The notes under the pieces: generated by a model
Databases searched by the model: none
What the model was told of the DNA's origin: nothing
The model's input: only the letters and a program-made list of their open reading frames with translations
In this document: piece after piece, positions 644-42,965 of the stretch
Layout: every line of letters starts with the position of its first letter
Position numbering within the stretch: position 1 is the first letter of the stretch
Assembly (NCBI GenBank): GCA_963575745.1
Contig: CAUYUJ010000140.1
Location: forward strand, 62,001 to 117,720
DNA: 55,720 nucleotides
Direction of reading: 5' to 3'
DNA from: Prorocentrum cordatum
Lineage: Eukaryota
Position numbers and translations under genes: made by a program

Positions 644-679
644 TCCGAGCCCAAACGGCTTGAGCCAAAACTCGACGGA
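644..679 (-). other. Degenerate tandem dinoflagellate spliced-leader relics
   Basis: Minus strand reads TCCGTCGAGTTTTGGCTCAAG (last 12 nt identical to DinoSL, 5' TCCGT kept), then CCGTTTGGGCTCGGA (10/15 to the relic CCATTTTGGCTCAAG), ~65 nt upstream of the ORF at 580. Confidence 0.6.
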
Positions 680-1842
680 TATGCACAACAAACATGCAAC
701 AGAGGACTGCGTATTCGAGATGATATGTCGAATTTGCAACGCACCGCATTCTTGCAACGCTCGAGACAAGATTCTGAATGCGTTCACACGCAAGTTGATC
801 ATACTTTCCTATATGCATGGCCAAGAAAAGTCCAAGAAATGCTTGCGCTTTTGAACGCAACATTCAAGGACATTGCAATGCAACAACCTGGTTTTCAAGT
901 AAGCATGTATAAGTTAGCGAACTTAGTAACTTTGCGAGTTCAAGCTATCTGCCTCCAACTGCACCACCCGAGTTAGCCGACTTAGTAGCGCTACTAATGC
1001 TTATAACCGACTTGTAACATGGTTACAACTGAAGCTAACAATTAGTAAAACCGAGGGCCTTCAGAGGGGGGGGGGTCGAACTGGTAGTGACCACCCCCCG
1101 GTTTTCCGCCAGCAGCGGTAGAACAGGCTCTTTCCGTCCTTATACGCCAACGCTGCCCCTGGAGAGGGGCCTCTGGAGGCCAACGTCGGTCGCCAACGTC
1201 GGTCGCCAGTCCAGGGTGACGCCTGCCGGAACCCGCAGGCGCGCTGAGCCGTGCACCATCGCCGCCTCGGAGAGCGCGGTGTAGCCGGAGTGGTCCACCG
1301 CCTCGAGGTGAGGAGCGGGCGGGCGAAACGCGGAATCCGATGGACCTCCTCCGCCCCCAGGGCCGCCCGTCACAAGACGGCCGACAAGTGCACAGCCCTA
1401 CGGCATCACGGGGGGGTGGAAGCTCTCCAGCCGCCCTGGGACGGTCGCCCACGATAGCGGAAAAGTCTGTCAGACCTTGTTCGTCCGCCAGATGACGGGA
1501 GGACCTTTCTGTGCCACCTCCAACAGACGGCCGAGTGTGAACCTAACCCCTGCAGGTCAGATTTCTGAAACACCGCGGGGGCTCAGAACTCGAAGGGGGC
1601 TTCGGCCAATTGAACCCCAACGGGGTGTCTGGACCAGCAGGAGTAATCGCGCAGTGTCTTCGATACCTATCCCAATGATGGGAAACTGTATTCCACAGGC
1701 TTAGTGACGGATTGGGGCCCCAACTTTTGAAAGTGATTATTCCAATGCGGCGGCCACCGTCCAGGCCTCTGCTATAGTCGTCGACGCCGCCGTCGTCGTC
1801 ATCGCACTCGCACGCCACGTGCTGGTGATATGCCGAAAAAAC

Positions 1843-2027
1843 CTCCTCCTCCTCCTCCTCCTCCTCCTCCTCTCCCTCCTCCCCTCCTCCTCCTCCTGTT
1901 TCCTCCTCCTCCTCCTCCTCCTCTCTCCTCCTCATCCTCATCCTCATCCTCATCTCATCATCCTCATCCTCATCCTCATCTCATCCTCATCCATCCTCAT
2001 CCTCCATCCTCATCCTCATCCTCATCC

Positions 2028-2094
<67 letters not shown>

Positions 2095-2095
2095 G

Positions 2096-2181
<86 letters not shown>

Positions 2182-2419
2182 TCCCTCCTCTCTCCTCCCT
2201 CCTCCTCCTCCTCCTCCTCCTCCTCACTCTCCTCCTCCTCTCCCCCTCCTCCCTCCTCCGTCCTCCATCCTCCCTCCTCTCTCCTCCCTCCTCTCTCCTC
2301 CTCCTCCCTCCTCCCTCCTCCCTCCTCCTCCTCCCCTCCTCTTCCTCCTCCTCCTCCTCCTCCTCCTCCTCCACCTCCTCTTCCTCCTCCTCCTCCTCCT
2401 CCTCCTCCTCCTCGTCCCT
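1843..2419. repeat. Compound (CCT)n/(CAT)n/(CCT)n microsatellite
   Basis: Directly visible trinucleotide runs. Confidence 0.97.
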
Positions 2420-5400
2420 GTTGGTAGCGGACGTCGGGCTTGATATGGAGTCGCCCGAGGCCGTCATGAAGTTGGCGAAGCACTTGCTGAACATTGGGCG
2501 CTGGCTGGAGCGAGTCAGCAAATCGACAGCGTTGCAGGCGATCGACCCTTGGGTGGGCAACTTCTTCGCCTCTGGCTTCCAGATGTTCTCGGACCCGCAC
2601 GTCGAGGACAGTGTCGATGCGATCCTTGCTCGAGCTGATGAGGTGCTGGATACCTATGGCAAGAAGTGCCTGGAGGGCTGGAAGACATGGGCGGCCAGCT
2701 CTTCCGAGAAGGGGGCTGGACAGGCTCATCGCCACACCAGAGCGAAAGCAGCCCAGGAGATCTACGACTGGGGCAACCTGCACAACGACCTGGCCCAGCC
2801 GCACGTGCTTGCCGACAAATCCATGAGGTCCTGGGACAATATATGGGGACTGCATGAACAACAGGTCGTGGCGCTTCCGGCCGGCGCAAGTTCGTGGGCA
2901 ACACTCCCTGACATCACGGTCGCAAAGTTGCGTGCTGCGGCCCTTTCTTTTCCATGGCACACTGGAGTTGGCCAATTTCATGTTTCGCCTCGAAGCCTTT
3001 GGTATGTGAGCCATGTGGGGCTGTATGTGCTGGGCCAGTTGTTCTCAGCATGTGAAAGGCTGCACCAGTGGCCGCAGAAGCGTGTGGTCACCCAGATGGT
3101 CAGGCTGCCGAAGGAATCTGGCGGCAGCAGGCTCGTTGCCTTGATCCACGCGCTGCTGCGAGTGTGGGGCCGTGTGAGAAGGCCTCTTGCAGCTTCTTGG
3201 CAAAGCGATCACGTTGTGGAGGCCTTTTGGGGCACTGGGGCGGGTCGTTCGTCGGTTGACTGCGCTTTCAGTTTGAACTTGGAGGCAGAGATCGGCCACG
3301 AGCTGGACGAGGATGTGGTCAATGCCTCCCTTGACAGGATGAAGTGCTACGAGACGGTGCGGCTCGACGCTCTCTTGACGGAGGCTTGCGCGGTGGGCTT
3401 CCCACCCCGCCTGTGTTGGATGGCGGTGCAGACGTATGTACAACCACGTCTCATCAAGGCGTACGGGGGGCTGTCGTATGCGGTTGTCTCGCTGCAGGAC
3501 ATCTTGGCGGGCTCGCTCCTCATGGTCCTGCTGTACCGCAGTATGCAGAGCACGGTTAGCAATTTTATAAATGTGACTCCTCGCGCGATGATTGATGACA
3601 TCAGCTTTCAGTGGGTGGGGGAGCGGGCTGTGGGGCTGAGGCGGGACGGGAGGGATCCTGTGCATGAGCTCTACGCTGCTCTCCGTGCCTTTGTAGATCT
3701 TGTTAAGCCGTTGGGGTTGCGAGTTCAGTTCCCCAAGTGCGGTTTTGTTGCTAGCACTGGTCGTGCTCGTGAGCGGTTTAGTCGTTTTGCTGGTCTTTTG
3801 AAACTGGCTTCGAAGAAGGCCATGCAAAATATTGGGCACGAACTCCATGGGCCCCGGGTCCTGCGGGCCCAGGAAAAGTCTCGGGTGCGCAAAGTTTGTA
3901 CGCGCAAGGCCAAGCTGCTTAATCTCCGTCGTGCGGTGGGGAACCGAGTAGCCGGCCTGTGGCGCACAGGGCTCATGCCCTCGGCTGCGCACGGTGTTGG
4001 AGTGTCAGGAGTTTCTGACACTGCGCTCCGCACCCTTCGCACTATGGCGGGGGGGGCTGGCGGGGCGAAATCGATGTGCTGCCTTTCGTTGTACCTTGCC
4101 GCACAGGCTAGCTTCAGATATGATCCTGTTCTTGGTGCCACAACTTCGCTTGTGTGCCGTTACGCTGCCTGGATCTGGGAGCAGCGGGTGAGCCCTAGTC
4201 GCCTGCGCCGTGCCTGGGGCCGCATCAAGGAGCGGCTTTCTAGCCGAGTGACCTGGGCCGGAGCTCGGGCCCCATCTCCTCGACCTTCCTCACCCTCCTC
4301 AGAATTGGTTGGAACATGTTGCCCCCTACTGTGATTGTGGACGACGTAGGCAGGCACGTGGATTTGTTGCGCACCTGCCCTTCGGATGTGAAGCGATTTC
4401 CGGAGGAAGGTTTGCAGCGATGGCAGTCTCAAAGAATTCTGGCTTATTTCGAAGACAGTGCCGGCGAAACGTGTTGGCTTCGTGCTATGGGATCCTCGAC
4501 GAAGTGTTGGGGGATCCAGATGCGAGTTCCCTCAATTATGTTGGCAACAGTTGGGCCGACATGTTTGCCAAGTGGGGCGCCGCTAGTCATGCTGTTGGGG
4601 ATGTCTTGGTTGACGTCCACAAGCGAGAGCTGAAGCACGCGAAGGCCGCCGCTAATGTCTTTGCCTGGATGGTGCAGGCTGTGGCCCAGAAGTCGGCCGC
4701 GCTCCTTCCTCGGTCTCTGGAGCCACACGGCTCGGTGGAAGCCACGCGTATGCTCGAGCCTGCCCTGTCTCTCATTTCCCATGAGCTGTGGGTGTGCAAG
4801 CGTACTGGTGAGCAGAGGTGCGCGCAGTGTAACCACTTTGCTCGCACGCAGCTTTCGTTGAAGTTATTGCGAGCATCTGCGTGTACACCGAACGCCATCA
4901 AGCAAGGAGCGGCCGCCCGTTTTTTCCAGCTCTCACCTGATGTGTATGAGCCCCTGCTCCTGGCCCCTGCGGCCGAGTAGGCCATCCAAGCCGATGGCTT
5001 CGATCCTTCCCCTCTTCCTCCCTCGGTGGGCGAGGGGGAGGGGGCGGTGAAACGGGAGGTTGCGGCGTACCGTGCGCTTGGCCACGAGGCCGAGCGGCAT
5101 GGACGCGCTTTGATATGCCTGGAGTGTGGAGCGTTTATTGTCGATCAGGGTCGGAATCCAAAATTGATAAGACCTGTGTCGGACGATCTCGCGTCCCCTC
5201 CACGAGGGCCAATGAGGAGGCCCAGGTCTCTAGAGCTCTGCGAGGCCTTCACCCTCGCACGCGAGATCTGTTGGCTCCTCTCTCTCTCAGTCCGGGCCGG
5301 CTCGGCTAGAAGCGAGTTTTCCCCTGTGGAGGCGGGGGCGGGGGGTGGGGGAGGCGGAGGCGGAGCGAGCGTGTTGCCCTCTGCCTCGGCGTCGTCGTCG

Positions 5401-5681
5401 TCCGCTACCCCACCGCCACAGGCGCCGCCGCCTGCTGTGGGGCGCGGCGGTGCTGGCCTTCGTGGCCGTGCTCGCGGCCGCGGACGCGGCGCTGGCAGGC
5501 GAGGACCGCCCGCCCCCCGCCCCTCCCGTTAGTGTACGCACTCCAACTGTTTCTGACGGTTCGTCGTACGCGTCTTACGCCGCCCCAGGCTGAAAGCCTG
5601 GGCCCTTTGGCTTCTGGCCCCCTTTTAACTGCTGGCTGGCGATCGTGACTCGGCCGCCTCCTCAGCTGTCCTGTCCTCCTT
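2420..5681 (+). mobile_element. LINE-A: 5'-truncated, decayed non-LTR retrotransposon (RT + RNase H remnant + Cys/His motifs)
   Basis: RT motifs RLPKESGGSRLVAL..LRVWGRVR, SLDRMKCYETV and AMIDDIS; RNase H C-terminal motif GNSWADMFAKWGA; HELW..CAQC and H..LICLECG motifs. Identical 17-bp flanks TCCTCCTCCTCGTCCCT at 2403-2419 and 5682-5698. Confidence 0.88.
2446..4334 (+). pseudogene. Reverse transcriptase ORF of LINE-A (frameshifted before RNase H)
   Basis: Non-repetitive part of ORF 1830..4334 contains the non-LTR RT motifs; coding continues in other frames (4316..4633, 4309..4980). Confidence 0.85.
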
Positions 5682-6599
5682 TCCTCCTCCTCGTCCCTCC
5701 TCCTCCTCCTCCTCCTCCTTCTCCTCCTCCTGCTCGTTTTGATCCTTATACGCAAAGTCCGAGCCAGAGACGCCCGTTGCGTGGGAGGACGAGGGGGAGG
5801 ATGAGGAGGGGCAAGACGAGGAGGAGAAAGACGAGTTATGTTCCTAACCGAGGGCTTAGGGGGGTCCCCCTTAACAGTCAAGACCCTCTGAGGTTACAGT
5901 GAGCAAGTGGTGGCAAATCGAAGGCACTGAATCCGAAAGAGCTGACACATCTTGGGGTGCCGGGACGCCGGGGTCAGCCCAAGCCCAGGTCGGCCAGGTC
6001 CCTGTCGCGAAACCCAGCTGGCCGCTCAGCAGCTCCCAGACCCGAGCCAGTGGACAGTGGAGGAAAGGTGGAAACTTGCCCCACGTGGCTCCCAACCCGG
6101 GGCCAGCCAGCGGGAATTGCCCAGAAGTGCATGTCCTGATGGTTTCACCACGGGTCCCTGCACTCCTCCCTCCTCCCTCCTCCCTCCTCCCTCCTCCCTC
6201 CTCCCCCTGGGCCTATTGCTCCTCCCGCGGAGTCTTCAGACGATCCCCCGAGTCCCGGCACGGGCCCCGAGAGGCCGACAAAATGGCCAAAGACCTCCCG
6301 CCATGAGCTGTGCTGCGACGCGAGCACGTCTGGGTGGTTCACCCCCCGCCAGCGCTGACCCCCCCGTTGTTGGCGGCGCGAAGGGGGGGGAGGGGGGAGG
6401 GCGAGGGGCTAAGCCAGGTGCGCTCGAGTCATATCTGACGTCCTACCCCATCCCTCCCATCCCTTACCATGGCGCAGATCTCCTCTCTATTCGCACAACC
6501 GGATGTCGCAGCATGGCATATGATTACGTGGCTTAACACGGTGTTGAAGATCTGCTTTCTTCGGGAGGATATTTTCTAAATTTTGGGGCCTGTATGGAG

Positions 6600-25077: not shown

Positions 25078-27284
<2,207 letters not shown>

Positions 27285-29185: not shown

Positions 29186-30244
29186 GGGGGGGATCCGTGC
29201 CCACGAGTCTCCACGAGTAAACAAGCAAATCGCTTGATACATTCTCGTCATCTGGCCCCCCTGGGGTGCGACAAACAGCGCCTCGCCCCAGGCATCTCCA
29301 AAAACTGCTCCGAAAGCGGAGGATGTTGGGAACCCAAACGGGCAAACCGCTTGAGACAGCCCCACATTGTGAGCGCGAAGGAAGAGTGAGATACCCGCGA
29401 GGAGGCGGTCTGAGTGTGAGCGATTCTGAATGTGACTAAATCCGAATGTGAGTGAGTCTGAGTAAGAAAATGATGAGAATGAGTCTCAGTCTGAGTGGGT
29501 CTGAGTACGATCGAATATGACTACGAGTGGGTCTGAAGGTGGATGGGTCGAAGTGTGAGTAACTCTGGGTGTGCGTAAATCCGAGGGCGAATGAGTCTGA
29601 GCATGAGGAGTATGGTGAGTACGAGTCTAAAGGCGAGTGGGTTTGACCATAAGTGGATATGAGACATCCTCACACTCTGGGCCCCCCTGGGGTACGAAAA
29701 CCAACGCCTAGCCCGAGGCATCCTCAGACGGTGCTTTGAACGCATACGAGCCTGGCCGACTAAACAAGCAAACCGCTCGGGCGCGAAAGCCAGAGCGTCG
29801 CCGGAGACACCACCAGGCGTTATTCATGTACGACCCGTCGCAGGTTAAGTCTTGCGTCGTCAGTAGAGCTTACGGGTACTTGGACGATCGCGTGGTCTCA
29901 CATGACACCCCCTTGCTCTGCGCTGGCAAGCATGCGTACCGCTCGAGACATCCACGCCATTGTGGCGCGAACGGAAGAATGAGATACCCCTGGGGGTGTT
30001 TCGACCCGCGCCGCGCCGCGCCTCCGCCATCATCATCATCATCATCATCATCATCACTACCACCATCATCGTCATCAGCATCACCAGCAACACCATCATC
30101 ATGAGCAGAATGAATATCCGCAGCAGCAGCAACATCATCCTCATCATCATCTGCATCATCAGCATGCGAAACAATATCATCACAACATAACACACCATTT
30201 CATACCATGTCATACCATAACAAATATATCCGAGCATGGAATAG

Positions 30245-32888
30245 TCAAGTCAAGTCAAATACGCCTTGCACCAAACGGTGCGTGAGCAGGGGTGAAAAAC
30301 AACGTGCGCGAACCATGCAACCAGCGTGCCTTCAGCATCTGGTCCACGCCTTCACCGCGCGCTCCCACGCTCGAGCTGCACCACCCTCCGGGTGGAAGTA
30401 AACAGCGAGTCGTTCGCGGGAGCCTGCGACCTTGAGACAATTGTTCCAGACTAAATGACCCCATGTCTGCCTCGGTCTGACCCGCTTTCTCGGGCCGGCC
30501 ACCTTGCGTAGCTCCAGGGTGCCCGGCTCAAACACCGATCGCCTCACAGGATCTTGGCCAGGTCGGCGCGCTAGCTGCCCCATGTAGATCATGTGCCGTC
30601 TTGCGAGGCAGTCGCTGAGCTTCGGCTGCTCGACGATTCCAAGTACAATGGCATTGGATACTTTGTTGATGTACGCCGGAGATATTTGGCATATCCTCTT
30701 GATGCAACGATTTTAACCTACGTCGCTCTGCTTGGTTCGGACACGCAGCAAAGAGGGCGCACATCAGCTTGGACACCACGCATACGTTGAATATGTGTAT
30801 CTTCTGGTCTCTGGTCAGGGAGGCATGTGACCAAATCGCGTGTAATATTTTGAAGTCCTGCATGGCTGCCCCGAGTCTGCGGCTCAATTCCGAAGCACAC
30901 CTCCCGTCGGCGGACAGCGTCGTGCCCAGGTAGACGAGGGGCTGCTTGTTGACGATGGGATCGCCAGTGTTGTCCGTGACGCCGTCCTCCGTCCGCACCT
31001 TCATGAGCTCCACTTTCTTCCAGTTGAAGAGGAGGCCGTAGTTCGCCCCAAACTTCTCGACGTACGTCATCAGCTCCTGGACGGCACCAGCGTCAGCGCC
31101 CATGGGCAGGGTGTCATCCGCGTACACCAAATCCCGGACCAGCTCCTCCGGCACCAGTCCACCTCGTCGCTCACGAAGCTCCTTGTGGGCATCATGTAGG
31201 AGCGTTGTCATCACAACTGCGCACAGAAATGGAGACAGAGGGCGCCCCTGACAGATGGCGTACTCCTGCGCCCTCTCCTGCGACTTGGCGCCGAAGTCGT
31301 CGACCACGAATCTGCGGCTTTGATATCTGGCAACGACCATGTTGACGAACCGGCCTGGGAAGCCACACCTCCGCAGAGAATTTGCCAGCGCCTCCGGCGA
31401 CGCGCAGTCAAAGGCCTTCGCCCAATCCAAAGCCAAGAAGACAGTCTTGCCGTCTCTAGCAGCCCACGTTGCTTCGAGAAATCGCCGGGCAATGAATATT
31501 GCATCAGCCGTACCACAGTTAGACCTGAATCCGAATTGTGTCTTCCATATGCGCTGCTCCGCCATGCGCCGGAGCATTACGAGTGCGAACATCTTATATC
31601 CGATCGGGAGGAAGCCGATCGGGCGATAGTTATTGCAGTCCGCGGGGTCGCCCTTCTTGTAAATCATTCTCACCTTCGCCTTCTGCCATGCATCTGGCAC
31701 GTCGCCCCTTTTCCCATACCAAAGTGCAGAAACGAGTGATCCATTCCAGCGCCCGCGTGCCGTCCTCGCATGCTGCTCGCCAGAACTCCGGAAGTATGTT
31801 GTCCATGCCCCCAGCTCGGCCTTGCCTAAGTTTGCCCGCTGCCTTGCTTACTTCTGCCTCTGTGATGGCGTCGAGGACAATCGGCAGCTCGTTCTCGTGC
31901 AAGGCGTCCATGGGCATTGCTGTCGTAGGGCGCGCTGCCCACTGCACTCTTTCTAGATGCGCCGCCAGAGCGTCGGCCCGGCTGTCGCTGTCCACGAGCT
32001 GGCCCGCACCATTCTTGAGTCGACCTTGCTGCGGGCAGAATCCTTTTCGAAGCTTCCTGATCTCGCCCCAGTCTCCTTTCGCAGTCAGCTCTTGCAGCCA
32101 GGCGGCCCGGTCGCTTGCGACTGCTTTTCTGATCTCTTTCGCCACTATAGTCTCGTCTGCCCGGTCCCCCCTCTGTCTGGCCACGGCGCGACGATCTATG
32201 CTCTCCAGCGTTCGAAGCCGTATCCACGGCTTCCTCGGGCGTCTGGTCTGCCGCGGGAGGGCGCACCCCGAGGCGCAGAGGAATCCGTCAGTGAGTTGGC
32301 ACCACGCTAGGTTCACGTCGGTGTGGTCCGGCGTCGCGGTAGCAAACTCCTCCAGTGCATCAGCAAGCTCATGCGTGAATTTATGTCAGGCGTCGTAGTT
32401 TTTAAACTTCGATGCGTCTGCCCTGGCAGCCTCGGTTTCGGGCGTCGTCTTATCCACCGTCGCGCGGACGCGCAACTGCAACAGAAAATGGCGCGATGAA
32501 AGCGGCGTGTCCCGGCAGACGCTCAGATCGAACACACTATGAGACCAAGACTGGGCGCACAACATAAGATCTATCTGGGAATGGGTCCTCCAATCCACTG
32601 TTTCGCCGGCGGACCGTCCTACGTTGTAGTTGGTAGCCAGCTGCTCTCGTGAGTATGGGAAAGATGTATTGGACATGCGCATGCCCAATTGCGTACGCAT
32701 CTCCACCAGCAGGTGTCTGTTCGCGTCAGTTTGACAAGTCTGCCCCGGATGCCGAAACACATATGGTCCGACGACCTGCCGTTTCGTCGATCCTTCTGTC
32801 ATATAACTTCGCATTGAAATCTCCCAGAACCATCTTTGGACCATGAGCAGACTGATAATGGACGAATTCCCCAATATCATGATATAAT
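30245..32888 (-). mobile_element. LINE-D: 5'-truncated RTE-like non-LTR retrotransposon (APE C-terminal half + RT)
   Basis: APE motifs VLGDFNAK, SQIDLML, SRHFLL; RT motifs KKGDP..NYRPIG, QFGFR, LDWAKAFD, QGRPLSPFL, LVYADD, LVYLG. (TTGAC)3-type 3' tail at 30245-30258; 82-bp flanking duplication. Confidence 0.93.
30528..31700 (-). pseudogene. Reverse transcriptase domain of LINE-D
   Basis: 390-aa ORF with the canonical RT motifs including YADD; frameshifted relative to 31630..32316 and 32386..32880. Confidence 0.92.
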
Positions 32889-33824
32889 CATGCGAAACGG
32901 TAGCATCGCAACATCACACACCATTCCATACCACGCCATACCATAACAACTATATCCTAGCATGGAATAGCATGGCATAGCACCACATAGCATGCCATAG
33001 CATAGCACGCCATACCGTCCATGGCATACCGTTCCATGCCATAGCAAACTATAAAAACAACACGTGTTTCAGAACATGCCGTTCCATAACATAACATCCG
33101 GGAGTGACTCCGGGCGAGGGAGAGGAGGAGGAAGGAGGTGAGTGGGCGGCCCCATTTCGGCGCGGTCGGAGTAAGAACAAGCAGCCCATCCTTCGGATAT
33201 GGGGAACACGAACCCCATCCTTTGAATATGGGGTGCATGGTCACACGAAACTCAACACAAAGCCCAACAGCAACAAGCACCCATCCAACACAAACAACAG
33301 CACACAATCATAACATCAACAACCGAAGCAGCAACAACAACCATCATGTTAAGACGTTTCAGTCTTACCTGCTCGCGTGCCAGTAGCACGTATATCCCAA
33401 GACCTCGATACCCGCCCTCTTCGTCTTCGAACGTACCCTCCTGGGGGGGATCTTCCTTGCCTGCCGCGCGTCATTGGCGCAGCCCGTGGAACAGTGGAAG
33501 AGAGGACGGATGGAAGGGACAGGGAAAAAGATGGAGCACGTCATTGGCAGGAGTCGGGCTAGGAGCAGAAAGCACGCGGCAAAACCAGACGGGCTGATCG
33601 GGCGGGTAGACCCTTACAAGCAGGTCGGGAAGGCGGGCCCCAGCGGCCAGGTCGAGCAGGCGGGCTGCCGAAGCGCGAGCAGGTACTGCGATAGCGATAG
33701 CGATAGCCCGTGCGAAGGCTCGAGCCCCAAGTGAACGGCGAGAAAAAAACAAGAGCGAGAGCACGATTCGTGACTATCGGGAGGGTCCCCTTACAACGGG
33801 GTCCGGAAGAAGGCGGAGGAGGAG

Positions 33825-35606
33825 CGAACGAAACCAATCGGTCCCGTTCGGGGCGGCTACCGCGCGCGCGCGGCGGCCTGCCGACTCAGGTCGCAGTCGT
33901 AGTTGTTGTAGGTGGAGTACTTGGAGGCGTAGTAGTCAGAGGGCTCGCACTCGCTGGACTCGCTGGAGTCGCACTCGTAGGAGTCGCCAACCAGCCCAGA
34001 ATGCGACCAGTCGGACTCGGAGCACACATCTTCAGCGTAGCCGAGGCACTTGGCGAAGTCGTACATGCCGTCAAACGTGTTACAGTCGCACGTATCAAAC
34101 ACTCCGAGCATGTCCAACATGCCGCTCTGGAGGAGCCACTGCTGGTCAACGGCCAGCTTCGAGTCAGGGTCGGCGGGGGGCTTCATCACGGCATCGGGCA
34201 TCCCATCGGATAACTCGCTTGGTGACAGCGCTTGACCAGGCCAATCAACACACTCTGCAATATCTGTACTCCATATCAGGTCCAGCACGCAAAACAGGAC
34301 GTCGTTCAAGGAGTCGCCGGCAACCGGGCCGAAAGTACCGAGCTCGATCTTCTGGCTGGGAATGTGCTGCACCTCGGCGGAGCCCACGGACTTGCTGATC
34401 ATCGTCTGCTTGACGGTGTTGAAGGAGGAGAGCTCTTGCAGGTGTCTTTCCTGGCGTGCTAGCAGCGTCTGCAGTTGACTCTCGGCAATGGGACACTTGG
34501 ACTTGGACGAATCGATGAGGGAGTACAAGCATTGCGCGTCGAAGGAGGCGGGCGAGCACGACAGCGCGGCATCGGCGTCCACAGGCGTAGCAGGAGTAGG
34601 ATTAAGGAGCAGCTTGGCAAACGTGTGGATTATGTCGGACTCGTCCTTGGCGGTGGGCTGGTCCCTGATGTAGGCGATCTGGTGCACGGCGGTGGTAGCA
34701 ATCTCGTCCTTGGCGTTGAGCTGGTCGTGAGCGTTGTCGCTCTGGAGGTCGGCGGTGGAGGCAGTCGCGGTCTTGTGGATGATGGCCATGACGTCGTTCA
34801 TCAGCGAGGCCTGCTTGGTGCCCAGCTGGTCCGCGACGGTGGCGAACTGGTGCTCGGCCGCGGCGATGACGTCGGCCAATTCCTGCTTGAACTCGGAGTT
34901 TTGGTTCTGACTTTCTCAAGGAGGCAGTCCAAAGCGCGTTGGTCCTCTCGCCGTAATTTGTCACTCTCGGCAAGCGCGTACTCCAACGTCTCGAGCTTCA
35001 CCCGCAACACGGCCAAGGAAGAAGCCGAGTGGAGCACAACATCATCACGCGGACGACCATGGCCAGATATCACCTCAGACAAGGAGACGGTGTCCAGGGA
35101 GTTGACCTTGTCGGTGTTCACTTACTTGTAGGTCGGCGGTGCGCCAGAAGCCGACGAGGCAGCCACCGGTGGAGCAGCAGGCTCATCAGCACGCGCTTCC
35201 TGTAGGAGAAGACCAGCTTGATGCTTGGCTCGATTGGCATCTCGATGATATCGGAGACGCTGACGAAGAAGCTCGGGAAGCAATCCCGCACCAGCAGCAG
35301 CTCCGCGAGCGAAGTGATGAGGAGCAAGCGCATGACGATCACCAATGGCGTGACTCCCCATGGAGTGAATCACCTTCGCCGCTGACTGCTTCAGGAACAG
35401 TGGGACGGCCAGCCATCGTAGTCCAGGACCTGGAAGGGGTTGAAGAAAGCTACGTTCCTCAACCCGAGCATGGCGTGCCGCGCGGCTAGCCAAGGAGCGG
35501 CGTCCAGGCATGAGATCTGAAGGGGGGAGGCGCCAGCACTCGATGGTGCACGTTCGCAGCACACTACCGATGGGTCATCGGTGGCTTGAGCCAAAATGGC
35601 TACGGA
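33825..35606 (-). pseudogene. SL-capped retroposed transcript of unknown function (coiled-coil-like, decayed)
   Basis: Starts with an exact DinoSL; colinear broken ORFs 35122..35562, 34801..35121, 33857..34879. Candidate TSD AGARGGCGGAGGAGGAG (16/17) at 33808-33824 and 35608-35624. Confidence 0.72.
35585..35606 (-). other. Exact 22-nt dinoflagellate spliced leader
   Basis: Plus strand CTTGAGCCAAAATGGCTACGGA = reverse complement of TCCGTAGCCATTTTGGCTCAAG. Confidence 0.97.
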
Positions 35607-38299
35607 CAGAGGGCGGAGGAGGAGGAGGAGGGCGGATGAGGAGGAGGCACCGCGTTGCATGCAGGAGGAGGAGGAGAAGAAGGAGGAGGAGGAGGAGGAT
35701 GGCTATACCCGACAAGAGGAAGACGGGGCGCCCCCGCGGGGACCGCCTGCACGCCAGAGCGACCCTGGGCAAGAATGCCATCCAGTGGCACGGCTTTCCG
35801 GGGTTCCGCGGGGGCCAAAAAACCAACTGCGCAGGCCGGTGGTGCAAGACGAAGCCAGGACGAGGACAACATCGGGTGAGGGTGAATCGAGAGTCTCTGA
35901 GATCCAATCGCGGAGACGTAAGACCCGGGTACGGGGGACTCGGGTTGGCCTGACGGGAGCTAATCTGAAACTTGACGCGAAACTCCCGCTGCAAACACCC
36001 CACGAAAACTGGACCGTCAAATTCCAGAACGCGCTGGCCAAATAACTCAGGCAGACCCGAGTTCTGGCTTACTCGAGTCTTACGCTTCCCCGATCCAGTT
36101 GCTCTGGAAGATGTTCAAGGGGCCCAAGGACACACAATAAATACACACAAATAACAGGATTCCCCACAGTTTATCATATTTTCTGGGTTTTTGTCTTCCC
36201 CCACTTCCTATATTTTCCCATCTCTCTAGGAACTCGACGATTCTTTGCGTCTGTGTGTTTTTCTCCCTCCTAAGATGTATCGGGAGCCGCGGCCTTCTCC
36301 TCGGAGCGTTCCAGAACGCTCTGAGAGCGTTCCGGAAAACTCTGGCACGGATTGATCCCCGCCCTAGCCTTAGGTCGGGCCTGTCCCACTACAGGAGGAT
36401 TTTGGAAGAAAAATAAAAAGTACTCCAAGAGTACCCAAAAGATGCCCCAAAATGCTCAAAAAAAAGTCCCCTGACAATTTTTTAAAATAATTGTTTAATA
36501 CTCCTCCTGTAGAGGGTCATGCCCGACTTAATCCTAGCCCCGTCAGAGTGCTGGGGCAAATCGGATCGGCTCGAACTGTGCATCGGATCGGGCTGCATCG
36601 GCACGGAATCGAGATCGAATCGGATCGGCTGCCGTCGGGCTGCATCGGATCGTCGGAATGTCGGAATCAAACCGGGTCGGGCCGGCCGGCATCGATGCCG
36701 AGTCTCATCGATCGGATCGAAGTTGGGCCCGCACCAGAGGTCACTCCAGCGAAGGGCAACTCTCACGAGCAGATGAGGGGACCGTCTCCAAGTGGGAAGA
36801 GGATGAGGTTTATGTTGCCCCCATCGTACTTAAGGACATCATCCCAGAAATAACTTCGAGCATCAAGAAGAGTATCGAAACAGTGTTAAACGAAAATCGC
36901 ATCCCAGGGCCCGACACGTGAAAACCCTCTTGTTTCGGTACTTTCCTGATGCTTGAAAATTATTTGTGGTGATCAAGGCTAAAGCAGGTTGGACCATCAT
37001 ACAGTAGGGTCCCGACCACAAGAAACCTTCCACAAGAAACCCAACCCTGAGACCCCAGGGCGTCCATTGATTATTGGTGTGGGCACGTCACGCCGTCCAT
37101 AGAAGAACCATCGAAGCCCAAGAAACCCAGGGCACCCTGGAGACAAGCAGGGTGTTTCTTGGCATGGGCCTCCACTGCTCCACTGTAAGGTGAGGTGCGC
37201 ATTATGGCCCGAGGCAAGTGCACGCCCAGGGGATCGGGAGGGGGGGCCAGAGGACGTGGTGATAGACGGCGAGGCGCCCTGAAATCGGGGGAGCCGTCAT
37301 CACGGCACCGGCCGTGAGATCCCCCCATCCCCAAACATGATCGCGTCGTACAAAAAATCAGGACGGGAAGTTTCTGGCTAGTTTCGGACCCGGGGGGGCC
37401 CTCGCCGGGCCTCGGGACCGTCAGGAAACGACTCAGGACGGAAAACCGGTCCTGGGGAAAGGGTCGGGACTTCCAGGGACGCCGTCCTGAAAAAATCAGG
37501 ACGTCGCATATCTGGGTCCTCTAAAAGCCATGATATGATGGCCCTGGCCATGCATCCACACCCTCCTACAGTCAACACTGACAGCAGGGCTGCACGATGA
37601 GGGTGCGAGGGCCTTGGAAGGCCATGCCGACACTTCTCGAGCGGGGCACGGCCAGCGAAAGTGGCCAAAGATGGGCCGAAGGAAAGGGATGCAAGGTACC
37701 CTTGGGAAGGTGACCCACCCTCATCATTGGCTTCCACTGTGGTCCTCGCCCCTCCTGGGCAGACTTGGGGCGATCCTTGGGGGGCTCCTTGGCCGCCTCG
37801 GGCCGTCGGAGGGCCGACGGGAAACAACTGCTCAAAAATCCTTCAAAAACCCAAAAAGGAGCATCCAGGAGCTGGGTTTCGGCGGGCCTTCCTGGAGGCT
37901 CTCTTGGGCTACACGCAGGAGTGACCCTGGGTAAGAGTGACCTTTGGTGCGCAGGACTAAGGGGGCGCAGCGTGGCCAAACCCAGGCCCGGCGCGCCAAC
38001 AGCCGCTATCGCATCGCGCTGAGCGATCGGGGGGACCCAGATGAGCCCGCACCAAAGATCATTCCGGCGAAGGGTCACTTTTGCGAGTAGTCGGCCCTCC
38101 CGGGCGCCCCCGCGCCTTCAGCAGCTCGGCGCCCAGCCGGGCCCGCCGCGCGGCGCGCCGCTCGGGCGCCATATATAGCCGCTCGCAGGCGGCGGCTCGG
38201 AGCCGCGGCGGGCCCTCCGCGCGTGGTTGCGGCGCTCGCGCGGCCTCCGCCCGCGGGCCGCGGCGGGAGGGGGAGGGGAGGGGAGGGAAGGGAGGAGGA

Positions 38300-38582
38300 A
38301 GGGGTGGTGGTGATGGTGATGGTGGTGGTGATTGTGGTGGTGATGGTGACGGTGGTGGTGGTGGTGGTGGTGGTGGAGGTGGTGGTGGTGGTGGTGGTGG
38401 TGGTGGTGGTGGTGGTGGTGGTAGTGGTGGTGGTGGTGGTGGTGGTGGATGTGATGATGAAGATGAGAACGGTGGTGGGGTGATGGTGAGGGTGCTGAAG
38501 ATGATGATGGTGGTGGTGATGGAGAGAATTGTGGTGATGATGCTGGTGATGATGACGATGATGATGATGGTGGTGATGATGA
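38300..38582. repeat. (GGT)n/(GAT)n microsatellite
   Basis: Directly visible. Confidence 0.95.
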
Positions 38583-38878
38583 AGGGACAGAGGAGGAAGG
38601 CGTTGTTCCTACCCCTGCTACGCTGGGGGGGGCAAGCCCCATGACCCCTGAAGACTGACGGCCACACACACACACAGTGAGCTGCGTGCGTGGAACACGC
38701 GGGGACCCACATGACAAGGCCACCACTGCCTTCGCAAAGAAGCTAGGCCAGAACTGAAAGGTCTGGCACGGAGCGGGATAACGGCCAGTGGGCGATTATC
38801 TTCGCGCTCTCGCCGCACTGCGGGTGGAGCCCGTATGAGGGGGACGGCAATGACGAGGAGGAGGAGGAGGAGCGCACG

Positions 38879-41800
38879 TGCCTCATGGGACTGGTTCGTG
38901 CGTCTATAATGAGAGAGCTGCCCGAACGGCCGCGCGCGCCTGCCTGAGCTGGGCGTCGGTCGCCCAGACCAGCGGCAGCAGCATGGGCCTCAACTTGTGG
39001 TAACTTGTGAAAGCTATCACGAGCGTCACGTGGGCTCGCTGTCGCCTGCCTTCCATCACGTCGTAGTCAGACTCACCCCCCGCGCCAAGGCGGACCCAAG
39101 GACACGCAGGGGGGAGGAACGACGCGAGGAGAGCAGCCGCGGCCCACAGACGCGGGCACACTATGTAGTGGGCGATCTCGCCTGGCAGGCTGCAGCCAAG
39201 CCGACAACGCGCCAGTGGGAGAATTTTAACCCGCCCACTCGTATTCCATGCGCCAGCTGGGGGCTTCATGTGAGGCCAGGGTCGGGGGGGGGGGGAGGGG
39301 ATCGAACGAGGAGGGCTCAGAGCGGGGCAAAGAGAGACGTGCATCTTTGAGCGATGCTAGTCTGAATGCGCCAACAAGGTGCGCACCATTTTCCCTGCAA
39401 GGCGCTCAACAGAGAACCGACAGCGAGGACACAGTCCTGGCTCCTCGTGCGAGCGCCGCGCCACTGCCGAAAAGTGTACCCTGCTGCTTGCCACACGCAC
39501 GACAGATTCATGCGCAGCATGGGTTCGGGGGCCCGTCGCCACCTCAGCCCATTCAGCTCGGACAGAGCGAAGAGCGATGGAGGTGAACGCAACAGCATAT
39601 GCCTAGCATGCGCTTCTTTCTGAAGCTGTCGGGGGGGAAAGGAAAGAACTGGGCAACATACGAGAGGCAGGGGCGGACGATCTTACGGAAGATACGCACA
39701 CGCGCGACAGCGGGGGCACGAGTGCTAGCAACTATCCTGCGTCGGGACCACCACTTTTGGCCCCCGGAGGCAAATTGATGTTCAATACTAGCACCTGGTC
39801 CAAATTGGACCCCTATATACCAGCAGAACCTACTTATCTCGAGCCCCGCCCATTCAGGGGTCACCGCCCAAACTTCCTCGCGCAACGCAGCTATCTCCGC
39901 TGGCGCTAGAATCTTCCAATCTGGAACAAGACGGCATTCCTTGGGCTGGAAGTTCAGATTCGACGGGGGCACAGGCAAGATAGGACGGCTGCCCGCTTCG
40001 CATGCAGCGGCGAGGTGACTGCAAACCGGGCCCGCCCCGAGCGCCCACAAGATCCCGCTCAGGGGCAGATCATTGCGCGGAATGGCAGGAAGGCGCGCAT
40101 CAGGGCATTTAGCGAAAGCCCCCTCAGAACGAGAAGCAGCAGCGAAGATCGGCTCCCAACGCTGCTTGATGACGTGGGCCATGGGCGCGGGCTCGCGCTC
40201 CACTGCGTCGGCGCCGCGCCGCCTGTGCTGGAGGCCGAGGTGCGCCATGCGTCTTCGCGAAGGGTTCCACGCCAGCGCTTGCCTCATAGTCGTCAGCTGC
40301 ATCTCCACCAGCCCTGGAGCACCTGCAAGCAAGTCGCCACCTTGGGGCAGCCGTGCTCTGCAAGAGGCCGACCGAGCCGCCTGCTGGGCCACTTCATCAG
40401 AGCGCTGCTGGCTGGATCACATGACGAGATTGCGGTGCTCGGCAGCGTTCTCAAGGTATACGGCGCTGTCGTCGGGGGCCCGCAGGAACAGCGGAGCGAT
40501 CTGAGAGCTTCCACGCTATCGATGGGCGGGGCGAGAGTCCTGCCGCCATACTGCTCGGACAATGGCCCGCGGCGTCATGCATTTCAGCTCTGCGGCCCGA
40601 TTGCAAGCTGGCAGCACAGGATATGTTTGCACTTCATCCCTCGCGGCGGCCGCGGCGAGGTGTACCAGCCCCTTCATGCAGGCGCGCTTCCCTTCCACGT
40701 CGTAGTTGAGCCAGTGGTCAGCGCCGATGCAATCCTGCAAAACCTGGCGGGGTAGGGACTGGTTGACAGCGTCGCTGACGTTGAGGCCTCCAGCATCCAT
40801 AGAAAAGGCAAGCCAGATCATCAGGATGAGCCCAGGACACATTCTGCGTCCAGCGAAGACGACTGCGTTGGCGTTGGTTGCACACTATCCCATACTTATG
40901 CATATTCGAGAACCGCACCACTTTGCTAGTGGCGGGGTTTGGAGTAGCGAATTGGTGCGCGCGTCCTGAAACGATATTGACTTGATCAAGTGGGGGTTCA
41001 TGACCAAAAGCCAGTTGTAGAATATGATTTGCGGATTGCCATGGTCTGATCATAGCGACCCCACCTCGATTTGGCCGAATGCCGTTCTCATCGGAGTCTT
41101 CGGGGCACCCAGGGTAGATAAGCTTGTGCTGTATATTGAACTGGTTCAGCATCGCCACCAGGGCAATGCATTGCCGCGGGCCTCTTGCAGCAGAAGCACA
41201 TGGGGGATAGGAGAAGCAGCTCCATCTGGAGGAACTTCTGATGCCGAAGCTGGTGAATGTAGCAGCCTAGCCCACGAGCGCCCCAACTAGCAACCCGCAT
41301 TTCTCGAGAGCTACCTTTTTCCACTTCCCAAGGACGCCACCTCCTGCTAGGAAAACGCCCATGCCGCAGCGTCCGCGCCCTGGAATTGTTGTTTGAGATG
41401 ATCTGCCATGAGCTGTATATTGATATTCTCCCGCGCAAATCCCCCTGGCGACCAACCCAACCTCGCGGCCTCATGCGGCCCCTGCGGTTGCACCTCGCCG
41501 GTGGGAGCTGAGTCTGAGTTGATGAGGCCAAGGGCGCGGGAAAGTCGCCGTTCTTGATCAGGATATTGTCGTTGAGGGAGCAGCAACGATATGTTACTTT
41601 GCCTTTCTTTGCGAACCTGCCTTGGTGATTTGTCAGAGTTGATATACAGCGCGCCCGTGGCTCCGCCGACCGCCAATTGCGAGGGGCGCCGCCAGGTTCC
41701 TCCAAGATGTCGAGGGTGCTGGGCCAGCTTGACAGCCCGAGCGATGCCAGCGGCACCGCCCGAACGACGAAAAAGAAAACACTTTGCCAGGAAACGGGCC

Positions 41801-42897
41801 GTAGACCGCGCACTATTCGCGTTGACGCCTGCATCGGGGATCCACTGCTTGAAGTAGTTCTGCACCTCGGTGCCGGCTGTGGCTTGAAGGCGGCCGATCC
41901 TAGAGATGCTGGAGATCCGTCGTGCACGGCGAACCTCGCCAACTCAACGGCGCCTGCTTGGGCGTCAGCAGCCTGAGCCAGCATGCGCCGCGCAGCTTCG
42001 AGATCCGATCGGAGAAGTCCTTGGCGAGCCCCCGTGGAGACAGCTCGCGCTTGAAGGCGCCGAGTGTCACATTTGCGCGCGTCCCGCCGCGCAGCTTGGG
42101 GCCGCAGAAGTCCAACATCGGCGCCGCGAGTGTCGCTGAGGGCTTATCCCATGATGGAGGTGAGCTCCGATCGCACCCCGAGCATCTGCTGGCAGAAGGC
42201 TGCCGCGCCCGCCGCCTCGAAGCCGTTTGCCGTGGAGGCGGCTGAACTCCTCGAAGATCCATCGGCACTTTCGGCCACATGTCCAGTAGAGACAGCACGT
42301 CCAGCACCGCGCCGCAGGTCACCACGCCCATGAAGCGGATCTCCCTTGCGATGACCAGGCACGCCCTCTGGGGGGGTCGGGGCGAGCTCGGTCTCGCGAG
42401 CCAGACTTGGCGTGGGCGACGGGGAGACGCCCGCAGCACCAGTACCACAATGGCCGCCGTCAGCAGAAGCAGGAACGCTCGCGCCGCGGCGCAGGTCGGA
42501 CTCATCATCGCGGCACGCATGCTCACGGCTCCCGCTACAAGAACGCGACGCGGAGCCATCGGCCCGATCTCACCGCCGACGACGAACCTCGCCTCGCCCT
42601 CTCTTCGACGTCGCCGTGCACGACGGTCATGAGCAGAGGCGCCGCTGCTGGCCCTTCTGGGATCGAAGGCTCCATCGCTCGGCAAGCGACGCGACGCGTG
42701 AAATATGAGGGTTGAGGGCGAGTGTCAGAAAGAGAACTTATGAAATAGGTCGGGGGGGCCACAAGTCACGAGCACTGAAGCCCCAGCGCCGCGAGGCCTG
42801 CCCTCGCAAGAAGGGCGCTCTGAGCCGCCCCCGTCGGCCGCGATCAAGCTCGAAACACCTGGGAAGCGTTTCGAACTTGAGCCAGAATGGCTACGGA
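38879..42897 (-). mobile_element. LINE-E: 5'-complete, SL-capped non-LTR retrotransposon (ORF1 + APE-RT-CCHC ORF2), internally deleted
   Basis: SL at the 5' end; putative ORF1 remnants ~42680-41500 (LYINSDKSPRQVRKE); APE motifs RVASWGARGL, DVLLLQEARG, RGGVA, IVSGRA; RT remnants PLSGILWAL and WYIGVQFGPG; zinc knuckle CRLGC..HYIVC. TSD GGAGGAGGAGGAGGAGCSCACG (21/22) at 38857-38878 and 42910-42931. Confidence 0.83.
42876..42897 (-). other. Dinoflagellate spliced leader, 21/22 match
   Basis: Plus strand CTTGAGCCAGAATGGCTACGGA. Confidence 0.95.
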
Positions 42898-42965
42898 AGG
42901 GGGGGGGGGGGAGGAGGAGGAGGAGCCCACGCCACTGGAGAGGCGCACCGCCCCTCCACCCGCGG

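What the first reader, a model, noticed from the sequence alone, without database searches (positions are those of the whole stretch)
35585..42931. Both intact SLs sit immediately downstream of (CCT)n pyrimidine tracts: a possible self-regenerating trans-splice acceptor
Seen on the sense (minus) strand: CCTCCTCCTCCTCCTCCGCCCTCTG|TCCGTAG-CCATTTT... and CTCCTCCTCCTCCTCCCCCCCCCCCCCT|TCCGTAG-CCATTCT... Established: the AG within an integrated SL is reused as an acceptor, which is why relic SLs start at CCATTTT. Inference: landing in a (CCT)n tract supplies a polypyrimidine tract just upstream of that AG. A new insertion could then be re-trans-spliced out of any read-through transcript, giving a promoter-free expression and mobilisation loop.
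Basis: inference. Interest (0 to 1): 0.8.

Follow-up and report, generated by a model that had tools for sequence, protein, structure and literature searches.

The report
Spliced-leader retrocopies sitting in (CCT)n microsatellites
Two genomic copies of the dinoflagellate spliced leader do sit directly behind CCT repeats, but elsewhere such copies abut simple repeats of any composition, so the repeat more likely marks where the copy was inserted than a splicing signal.

Summary
Two copies of the 22-nt dinoflagellate spliced leader (SL) lie on the minus strand, at 35585-35606 (exact) and 42876-42897 (1 mismatch). Their 30 upstream bases are 90% and 93% pyrimidine. Only 0.77% of minus-strand positions reach that.

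The acceptor reading is not what the wider evidence points to.
- Both units also carry the same CTC-type repeat at their far end. For SL1 this is a 17-nt motif found nowhere else in the window, so each unit sits inside a (CCT)n tract.
- Among other dinoflagellate-type genomic SLs, 17 of 77 evaluable loci abut a microsatellite of any kind: TA, CA, TG, CAT, CT, GA, GACA, GGGT. In control windows the rate is 0.3%. Only 2 of 77 are pyrimidine-rich, and one is polypurine.
- That polypurine case is a full-length LINE that starts with the SL and has (GA)n on both sides.
- Both window copies look decayed. One has a frameshift, the other has no homologues.

Best reading: SL-capped cDNAs were inserted into microsatellites by LINE-type reverse transcription. 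No RNA data could be laid, so re-trans-splicing at these loci is untested.

A striking by-product: giant-virus MAGs encode the SL at a fixed distance from an early-promoter-like motif.

The parts
35585..35606 (-). SL1: exact 22-nt dinoflagellate spliced leader TCCGTAGCCATTTTGGCTCAAG. It is followed by CC, not by a GT donor, so it is not an SL RNA gene.
   Evidence: contrast with the SL RNA genes listed
35607..35699 (-). Interrupted (CCT)n tract directly upstream of SL1. A single G at 35607 lies between the tract and the SL.
   Evidence: (TRF 35615-35699)
35608..35624 (-). Candidate 5' target-site duplication, CTCCTCCTCCGCCCTCT
   Evidence: the motif CTCCTCCTCCGCC[CT]TCT occurs exactly twice in the window, at the two ends of the SL1 unit
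33825..35584 (-). Body of the SL1 unit. It has a 251-nt leader and then a low-copy gene 78% identical to a Prorocentrum cordatum 'unnamed protein product'. Relative to that paralogue it is read in three frames (35333-35193, 35121-34900, 34909-34244), because of a 71-nt extra segment and a 1-nt frameshift. The stop codon is at 33857-33859. There is no poly(A).
   Evidence: low depth in DNA contigs
33808..33824 (-). Candidate 3' target-site duplication, CTCCTCCTCCGCCTTCT, 32 nt after the stop codon
42876..42897 (-). SL2: spliced leader with one mismatch (TCCGTAGCCATTCTGGCTCAAG), followed by TT
42898..42925 (-). (CTC)5 + C-run + T directly upstream of SL2. The tract begins 40 nt after the stop codon (ORF end 42966) of the upstream minus-strand ORF.
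38873..42875 (-). Body of the SL2 unit: about 4 kb, low-copy, only frame-shifted ORFs, no detectable homologues
38855..38872 (-). (CTC)6 at the far end of the SL2 unit, 31 nt after the last ORF's stop. It is the same repeat as on the 5' flank.
30028..32975 (-). APE-type LINE. It is 5'-truncated, with a GDFN endonuclease remnant and RVT_1 (E 2e-26), and has an (ATG)n 3' tail at 30028-30165. It is preceded head-to-tail by an ~85-nt copy of the same LINE's 3' end (about 32890-32975).
1842..5735 (+). Reverse-transcriptase-bearing element (about 2418-5658) with sense-strand (CCT)n arrays on both sides (1842-2417 and 5659-5735)
644..679 (-). Third, degenerate SL (TCCGTCGAGTTTTGGCTCAAG) plus a relic (CCGTTTGGGCTCGGA), with no repeat or pyrimidine tract upstream

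Best explanation
Both SLs are the 5' ends of full-length, SL-capped cDNAs that were reverse-transcribed and inserted into pre-existing (CCT)n microsatellites. On this reading the repeat is the insertion target, split by the insert and left on both flanks. The most likely agents are microsatellite-tailed, LINE-type retroelements priming on a nicked repeat.

Shown: the SLs are genomic and are not SL RNA genes. The same repeat lies on both flanks. Retroelements in the same window and in another dinoflagellate-type contig have the same architecture. Adjacency of genomic SLs to microsatellites is widespread and independent of base composition.

Inferred: the enzymatic mechanism (target-primed reverse transcription with priming inside the repeat, which would explain the missing poly(A)), and that the single G before SL1 is cap-derived. 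The pyrimidine richness would then be a by-product of which repeat family is targeted or abundant in this genome.
For: (1) Both flanks carry the repeat. The 17-nt motif CTCCTCCTCCGCC[CT]TCT occurs 2 times in 55.7 kb, exactly at the two ends of the SL1 unit. SL2 has CTCCTCCTCCTCCTC upstream and (CTC)6 about 4 kb downstream, 31 nt after its last ORF's stop. The background chance of a pure C/T tract of 14 nt or more starting within any 120 nt is about 5%.

(2) Retroelements in the window are built the same way. The LINE at 30028-32975 has an (ATG)n tail and sits head-to-tail on a fragment of its own 3' end. The RT element at 2418-5658 has sense-strand (CCT)n on both sides.

(3) L266 is a 9.1-kb contig built as (AG)n | SL | one 2536-aa ORF with Exo_endo_phos + RVT_1 + RNase_H | AAAAAA | (GA)n. 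It is a full-length LINE that begins with the SL and lies in a microsatellite.

(4) Survey. In metagenome loci, 13 of 65 evaluable class-G SLs have SSR>=0.75 in the 30 nt upstream. This compares with 0.29% of 2800 control windows in the same loci (binomial p about 1e-20), 0 of 28 SL RNA genes and 0 of 25 viral-type loci. In MAG-contaminant loci the figure is 4 of 12. Three further loci (L006, L037, L044) abut one and the same 21-nt minisatellite.

(5) L254 is a solo 22-nt SL flanked by a perfect 18-nt direct repeat. SL sequence therefore does integrate with duplications of the size proposed for SL1.

(6) Both window copies look decayed. Insertion bias therefore explains the repeat without invoking selection for expression.
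Against: - Neither window unit has a poly(A) remnant, so they are not canonical processed retrocopies.
- The SL1 unit carries a 71-nt segment absent from its paralogue's protein. This may be a retained intron or an insertion.
- The SL2 'duplication' is the commonest repeat in the window and proves little on its own (73 occurrences of the 15-mer).
- Only 1 of 4 fully fetched SL contigs (L266) showed the repeat at the far end. The other three may simply be too short.
- The SSR threshold was chosen after looking at the listing.
- Control windows come from short-read contigs, which under-represent microsatellites. Real genomic backgrounds can be far higher: 6-11% in this window, and 25% simple repeats in Polarella (PMC7245778, passages).
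- About 78% of surveyed SLs have no adjacent microsatellite.
- No empty site was found.
Confidence: 0.5

Rival explanations
1. One reading: the (CCT)n tract acts as a polypyrimidine tract for the AG inside the integrated SL. Read-through transcripts are then re-trans-spliced there, giving promoter-free expression and further retroposition. The association arises by selection or survivorship.
For: - The sequence upstream of the AG is a near-ideal (Y)n-YAG in both copies.
- Reuse of the SL's AG is established in the literature and is visible here as SL+relic tandems in L005, L015, L054, L081, L084 and L257.
- All 3 CCT-flanked retro-units in the window have CCT rather than GGA on the sense strand.
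- Upstream windows with 80% or more pyrimidine occur in 2 of 65 loci, against 0.39% of controls.
Against: - The common denominator elsewhere is 'repeat', not 'pyrimidine': TA, CA, TG, CAT, GGGT, GA and GACA tracts, and mean pyrimidine fraction 0.517 against 0.493.
- L266 has polypurine upstream (pyrimidine fraction 0.03).
- The repeat also lies at the far end of the units, which an acceptor role does not predict.
- Both copies look like pseudogenes.
- The degenerate third SL, which already carries a relic, has no tract.
Confidence: 0.12
2. The CT tracts are ordinary sense-strand intergenic spacers of a unidirectional gene array, possibly signals for 3'-end formation or trans-splicing. The SL entered by recombination of a cDNA with the resident gene at its native acceptor site.
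For: - Three consecutive minus-strand units end as stop codon + 31-40 nt + CTC tract: the upstream ORF ending at 42966 (40 nt), the SL2 unit (31 nt) and the SL1 unit (32 nt).
Against: - There is no general rule in the window. Of 70 ORFs of 150 aa or more outside repeats, 4 have a C/T tract and 4 an A/G tract within 120 nt after the stop, which is about the 5% background.
- No AG precedes either SL.
- The DNA upstream of SL1's tract is a very high-copy non-coding repeat, not a gene.
Confidence: 0.18
3. Coincidence: two unrelated SL retrocopies happen to lie next to the most common microsatellite class of a very repeat-rich region.
For: n=2. CCT/GGA tracts are frequent here (52 pure tracts of 15 nt or more). 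By count of repeat loci, the odds of two sense-strand CCT neighbours, given that each SL has a repeat neighbour, are roughly 8% (my estimate).
Against: Random placement gives about 6e-5 for the pyrimidine criterion and about 1% for any repeat. The same adjacency recurs in unrelated contigs.
Confidence: 0.1

Closest known systems
Recycled or retroposed cDNAs with genomic DinoSL and relic DinoSLs (Slamovits & Keeling 2008 as cited in PMC6050394, PMC7245778 and PMC9651163; Song et al. 2017, PMC5585692)
   Same: The 22-nt SL is encoded in DNA at the 5' end of a gene-like unit and is not followed by the SL RNA intron. The internal AG explains relics that start at CCATTTT.
   Different: These are full-length SLs that directly abut a microsatellite, with the same repeat at the far end and no poly(A). 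I found no mention of microsatellite, pyrimidine or target site in the texts searched and no relevant paper for DinoSL + microsatellite.
Non-LTR retrotransposons with microsatellite 3' tails or microsatellite-specific insertion (recalled from memory: R1-clade Waldo/Mino/Kibi/Koshi, Dong; tail-primed L2/CR1-type LINEs). No call here tested these names.
   Same: The repeat lies on both sides of the insert. The LINE in the window has an (ATG)n tail and a head-to-tail arrangement. L266 has an A6(GA)n tail inside (AG)n.
   Different: Here the mobilised RNAs carry a trans-spliced leader. The repeat motif differs from case to case. No endonuclease specificity has been shown.
Polypyrimidine-tract-directed SL trans-splicing of trypanosomatids (textbook knowledge; papers seen only in the listing)
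   Same: A pyrimidine tract lies directly upstream of an AG that could accept an SL.
   Different: Such a requirement has not been shown for dinoflagellates (PMC2488372 passages: no consensus beyond AG), and the tract is not general among genomic SLs.
SL-gene-specific LINEs (recalled from memory: SLACS, CZAR, CRE of trypanosomatids; NeSL-1 of nematodes)
   Same: An association between spliced leaders and non-LTR retrotransposons.
   Different: Those elements insert into SL RNA genes. Here the LINE RNA itself acquires the SL (L266) and inserts into microsatellites.

Membership tests
DinoSL-tagged retrocopy (retroposed SL-mRNA) | DinoSL encoded in genomic DNA, upstream of and on the same strand as a gene-like unit | tested here: met
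DinoSL-tagged retrocopy (retroposed SL-mRNA) | Not an SL RNA gene, that is, no GT donor or Sm-type intron after the exon | tested here: met
   The SLs are followed by CC and TT. The 29 metagenome loci that I hand-assigned to the SL RNA gene class are nearly all followed by GTA... and a ...CCTTTT-type tail (L097, a TT-start variant, was assigned by eye).
DinoSL-tagged retrocopy (retroposed SL-mRNA) | Intron loss relative to the parent gene | tested here: inconclusive
   SL1 has a 71-nt segment absent from paralogue P0002, and the parent gene's DNA could not be fetched. SL2 has no relatives.
DinoSL-tagged retrocopy (retroposed SL-mRNA) | Poly(A) remnant at the 3' end | tested here: not met
   No A-run precedes the downstream repeat in either unit. 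L266 has AAAAAA.
DinoSL-tagged retrocopy (retroposed SL-mRNA) | Target-site duplication | tested here: inconclusive
   SL1 has a 17-nt motif unique to its two flanks. For SL2 the shared sequence is only the common repeat.
Functional trans-splice acceptor with polypyrimidine tract | Pyrimidine tract directly upstream of the AG | tested here: met
   90% and 93% pyrimidine in the 30 nt upstream
Functional trans-splice acceptor with polypyrimidine tract | Transcripts joined to a new SL at that AG | not testable with these tools
   No RNA run was listed, and only DNA-type contigs could be laid.
Functional trans-splice acceptor with polypyrimidine tract | Tract generally present upstream of genomic full-length SLs | tested here: not met
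   2 of 65 metagenome loci and 0 of 12 MAG-contaminant loci have 90% or more pyrimidine. These are other species, not this genome.
Microsatellite-targeted non-LTR retroposition | EN+RT element with a microsatellite tail present | tested here: met
   The window LINE has an (ATG)n tail. L266 has Exo_endo_phos + RVT_1 + RNase_H and an A6(GA)n tail.
Microsatellite-targeted non-LTR retroposition | Same repeat, same orientation, on both sides of the insert | tested here: met
   SL1, SL2, the RT element at 2418-5658 and L266
Microsatellite-targeted non-LTR retroposition | Empty site, or demonstrated endonuclease or priming specificity | not testable with these tools
   The genome is not held, and no second copy of the flanks exists in the window.

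The most novel reading that the evidence does not exclude
Dinoflagellate LINEs whose own RNAs are SL-trans-spliced integrate full-length SL-capped cDNAs, both their own and host mRNAs, preferentially into micro- and minisatellites. In this Prorocentrum-like genome the favoured tract is sense-strand (CCT)n. By accident this gives each new copy a ready-made (Y)n-YAG acceptor at the SL's internal AG, so copies are born re-trans-spliceable.
Probability: 0.15. Interest if true: 0.75.

Novelty: new variant of a known kind. Interest (0 to 1): 0.5.

Why it matters
Retroposition of SL-tagged mRNAs is held to be a main driver of gene duplication and genome growth in dinoflagellates, but where and how the cDNAs integrate is unknown. 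The review PMC6050394 (section 7, read) leaves even the class of retroelement open.

Three pieces of evidence point to target-primed insertion by non-LTR elements into simple repeats:
- a repeat-flanked architecture;
- a full-length LINE with an SL head;
- a solo SL with an 18-nt duplication.

This is testable genome-wide in any long-read dinoflagellate assembly. It also warns that 'SL + upstream context' should not be read as a splicing signal without RNA evidence.

Tried and rejected
- RNA evidence: no RNA holder was listed. The four runs laid were DNA-type Logan contigs only. They show that 33900-35340 and 39160-45500 are low-copy and that 35768-38311 and 33224-34071 are very high-copy. The 'joints' between 356xx and 38852 rest on 20-nt repeat matches, so I disregard them.
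- Rfam, whole window: 0 matches.
- SL2-unit ORFs: no Pfam family, no homologue among 5.8 billion clustered proteins, and none among 1.84 billion representatives.
- Similarity of the SL2 unit to the window's RT elements: none by tblastn.
- A shared 3'-end motif among the SL1, SL2, upstream-ORF and RT-element ends: only CGTNNG + CTCCTCCTCC. This is too short to use.
- A general 'stop codon + CT tract' rule: not supported (4 of 70 against 4 of 70).
- Families among the sequences downstream of the SL: 86 sequences compared, comprising the survey loci plus the two window units and L266. The only matches were trivial ones.
- Far-end repeats in L267, L268 and L269: none found. The 11-mer in L267 precedes rather than follows an A6 run and is not convincing.
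- Earlier findings of this scan: none.
- Structure prediction and complex prediction were not used, because no protein question was decisive.
Full report
**What is there.** The window is GC-rich (0.54-0.65 in most 2-kb bins) and very repeat-rich.

On the minus strand it holds two copies of the dinoflagellate spliced leader. I recognised the 22-nt sequence from memory. The papers read here print it as DCCGTAGCCATTTTGGCTCAAG (PMC7245778, passages).
- SL1 lies at 35585-35606 and is exact.
- SL2 lies at 42876-42897 and has one T>C change.
- With up to 3 mismatches there are exactly 2 matches, against 0.01 expected.
- Neither is followed by a GT donor. SL RNA genes recovered from metagenomes are followed by GTA... 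and a ...CCTTTT-type tail. These are therefore mRNA-derived copies, not SL RNA genes.

The only protein relative found for the window's genes is an 'unnamed protein product' of Prorocentrum cordatum, at 78% identity. No whole genome is held for the window.

- The 30 nt upstream are 90% (SL1) and 93% (SL2) pyrimidine. Only 0.77% of minus-strand positions reach 90%.
- Against 'any simple repeat', 6.0% of 30-nt windows score SSR>=0.75 and 11.2% score >=0.6. The two sites score 0.70 and 0.85.
- Random placement is therefore unlikely: about 6e-5 on the pyrimidine criterion and about 1% on the repeat criterion.
- A third, degenerate SL with a relic behind it (644-679, minus) has neither feature upstream.

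**The repeat is on both sides of each unit.**
- SL1 unit. The 17-nt string CTCCTCCTCCGCC[CT]TCT occurs twice in the whole window. One copy ends one base before the SL (35624-35608, then a single G). The other lies 32 nt after the stop codon of the unit's gene (33824-33808).
- SL2 unit. CTCCTCCTCCTCCTC lies upstream, followed by a C-run. (CTC)6 lies about 4 kb downstream, 31 nt after the stop of the last ORF. A pure C/T tract of 14 nt or more starts within a given 120 nt at about 5% of positions.
- Neither unit has a poly(A) remnant.

**Other retroelements are built the same way.**
- The RT-bearing element at about 2418-5658 (+) has sense-strand (CCT)n arrays on both sides.
- The APE-type LINE at 30028-32975 (-) has RVT_1 at E 2e-26 and a GDFN endonuclease remnant. 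It ends in an (ATG)n tail and sits head-to-tail on an ~85-nt copy of its own 3' end.

**Both SL units look dead.**
- The SL1 gene matches its paralogue in three different frames. It has a 71-nt extra segment and a 1-nt frameshift. An assembly error cannot be excluded for the single base.
- The SL2 unit has only broken ORFs. None has a Pfam family or a homologue.
- DNA-type contigs of a related sample show both units at single-copy depth. The DNA just upstream of SL1's tract (35768-38311) and downstream of the unit (33224-34071) is very high-copy repeat.

**Survey of other genomic SLs: metagenomes.** I sorted them by regex and by eye into three classes:
- 29 SL RNA gene loci;
- 25 AT-rich virus-like loci;
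- 72 others, called class G.

Of the 72 class-G loci, 65 have 30 nt or more upstream. Results for those 65:
- 13 score SSR>=0.75 and 17 score >=0.6 in the upstream 30 nt.
- In 2800 control windows from the same loci the rates are 0.29% and 2.1% (binomial p about 1e-20).
- The corresponding counts at SSR>=0.75 are 0 of 28 SL RNA genes and 0 of 25 viral-type loci.
- The repeats are TA, CA, TG, CAT, CT, GGGT and GGT/AGT types.
- Only 2 of 65 are 90% or more pyrimidine (L116 and L090).
- Mean pyrimidine fraction is 0.517, against 0.493 in controls.

Of the seven class-G loci dropped for short flanks, L066 and L070 are pure (CA)n up to the contig end. Three loci (L006, L037, L044) abut the same 21-nt minisatellite but have unrelated downstream sequence.

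**Survey of other genomic SLs: MAG contaminants.** A second, independent set came from the same core pattern in prokaryote MAGs, that is, in contaminating contigs. It gave 20 loci: 6 SL RNA genes and 14 others, of which 12 are evaluable.
- 4 of 12 abut microsatellites: (GT/GC)n, (TCA)n, (GA)n and (GACA)n.
- Two of these are purine-rich on the sense strand, with pyrimidine fractions of 0.03 and 0.23.

**Caveats on the survey.**
- I set the SSR threshold after seeing the data.
- The species are unknown and are not the window's species.
- Short-read contigs under-represent repeats, so the control rate is too low for real genomes.

**A worked example.** L266 is the complete 9096-nt contig behind one of the MAG loci. 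It reads (AGAGAC/AG)n, C, SL, a single 2536-aa ORF with Exo_endo_phos (E 5e-9), RVT_1 (E 5e-11) and RNase_H (E 1e-5), then 35 nt, AAAAAA, (GA)n and unique sequence. Three conclusions follow:
- A full-length LINE can begin with the SL, so its RNA was trans-spliced before reverse transcription.
- It lies in a microsatellite that remains on both sides.
- That microsatellite is polypurine on the sense strand.

L254 holds a solo 22-nt SL between two perfect copies of an 18-nt sequence. This is a target-site duplication of the size proposed for SL1.

**Interpretation.** The best-supported reading is that the two SLs mark full-length SL-capped cDNAs inserted into (CCT)n microsatellites by LINE-type, target-primed reverse transcription. 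Priming inside the repeat would explain the missing poly(A). I give this 0.5.

The tract does create a textbook-looking (Y)n-YAG site, and all three CCT-flanked retro-units in the window have CCT rather than GGA on the sense strand. However:
- it does not predict the far-end repeat;
- it is not general across SL loci;
- it is contradicted in composition by L266;
- the two copies show no sign of being kept functional.

A third reading treats the CT tracts as native intergenic spacers and has the SL enter by cDNA recombination at the acceptor site (0.18). It fits the three consecutive 'stop + 31-40 nt + CTC' ends. It fails a crude window-wide test: 4 of 70 ORF ends have a C/T tract and 4 of 70 have an A/G tract, which is about background. 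Pure coincidence gets 0.1.

**Literature.**
- Full-text 'find' for microsatellite, pyrimidine, target site, acceptor or repeat gave nothing on the sequence upstream of genomic SLs in PMC5585692, PMC6050394, PMC12014239 or PMC2488372.
- PMC6050394 (section 7, read in full) proposes instead that a TTT(G) motif inside the retroposed SL acts as a promoter. It leaves the mediating retroelement open.
- The search 'DinoSL + microsatellite' gave 2 papers. I searched one for the terms (PMC11453091), where 'microsatellite' occurs only in the reference list. The other (PMC5029500) I saw only in the listing.
- The search 'dinoflagellate + trans-splicing + polypyrimidine tract' gave 8 papers. By title and abstract, none concerns dinoflagellate acceptors.
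- Supplements were not opened.

**By-product.** The same core pattern occurs in 119 stretches of IMG/VR contigs, mostly giant-virus MAGs. Findings on these:
- There are 139 SL copies in all.
- 128 have AAA[AT]TGA within 100 nt upstream.
- In 123 of them that motif starts 47-49 nt before CCGTAG.
- The base before CCGTAG is A in 132 of 139.
- An ATG follows at a median of 48 nt.

I scanned 57 of the 84 downstream ORFs of 120 aa or more. Fifteen have a Pfam family (DUF4116, CCCH and RING fingers, NADAR) and the rest are ORFans.

This looks like genome-encoded host-SL mimicry at the transcription start of early-type genes. Three searches found no report of it by title or abstract. PMC9651163 (passages) cites a proposal of SL 'molecular mimicry' for an RNA virus of Symbiodinium.

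Noticed in passing
L127-L245 (IMG/VR, mostly GVMAG contigs up to 267 kb); also the 25 virus-like loci among L001-L126: Giant-virus MAGs carry many exact copies of the dinoflagellate SL core. There are 139 copies, and 128 have AAA[AT]TGA within 100 nt upstream. In 123 of them that mimivirus-early-promoter-like motif starts 47-49 nt before the SL. The SL is preceded by A in 132 of 139, and an ATG follows at a median of 48 nt. This suggests viral mRNAs that begin with a genome-encoded host SL. Downstream genes are mostly ORFans, with DUF4116, CCCH and RING fingers, and NADAR among the hits. Three literature searches found no report of it.
   Followed up: partly
L266 1-9096 (= G001:C12): A full-length APE-type LINE (2536-aa ORF with Exo_endo_phos + RVT_1 + RNase_H) starts with the full DinoSL, ends in AAAAAA(GA)n and lies in (AG)n on both sides. 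The contig is filed under a bacterial MAG.
   Followed up: yes
L254 403-460 (minus strand of the locus): A solo 22-nt SL (GCCGTAGCCATTTTGGCTCAAG) lies between two perfect copies of TTTTGCTTGCAGGCGTGA, an 18-nt target-site-duplication-like structure. It sits in a 209-kb contig filed under a Rhodospirillaceae MAG.
   Followed up: partly
L246-L265: Twenty loci in GTDB 'prokaryote' MAGs hold the exact dinoflagellate SL, as SL RNA genes and retrocopy-type loci. One lies in a 5.3-Mb 'chromosome' record (L247). These look like eukaryotic contamination or chimeric assembly.
   Followed up: no
window 644-679 (-): A degenerate SL (TCCGTCGAGTTTTGGCTCAAG) is followed by a relic-like CCGTTTGGGCTCGGA. This is an older, already recycled copy without any repeat upstream.
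   Followed up: partly
window 8479-9120 and 10086-10795: Arrays of an 89-bp unit read, on the minus strand...GC(G/A)(T/C)AGCCCGCATGG...CCATTTTGGCACACC. Both halves resemble the SL, with a GC-rich insert between them. Not explained.
   Followed up: no
window 47084-54650; 25078-27284; 1842-2417; 27627-28224: Very large arrays: a 108-bp satellite (about 70 copies), (AGT)n of 2.2 kb, and two (CCT/CTC)n arrays of about 0.6 kb each on the plus strand. The first of these has an embedded (CAT)n block.
   Followed up: no
window 35768-38311 and 33224-34071: Non-coding sequence at depths of hundreds to about 15,000 in Logan DNA contigs, where neighbouring unique DNA has depth 1-4. These are very high-copy repeat families flanking the SL1 unit.
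   Followed up: no
window 15342-16461: Another decayed reverse-transcriptase remnant, in two pieces on opposite strands (24-30% identity to the LINE RT by tblastn).
   Followed up: no
L006, L037, L044: Three SL loci with unrelated downstream sequence all abut arrays of the same palindromic ~21-nt unit, GGACCCCGGGGTCCTTTAAAA. This may be a preferred target or the end of a mobile element.
   Followed up: no
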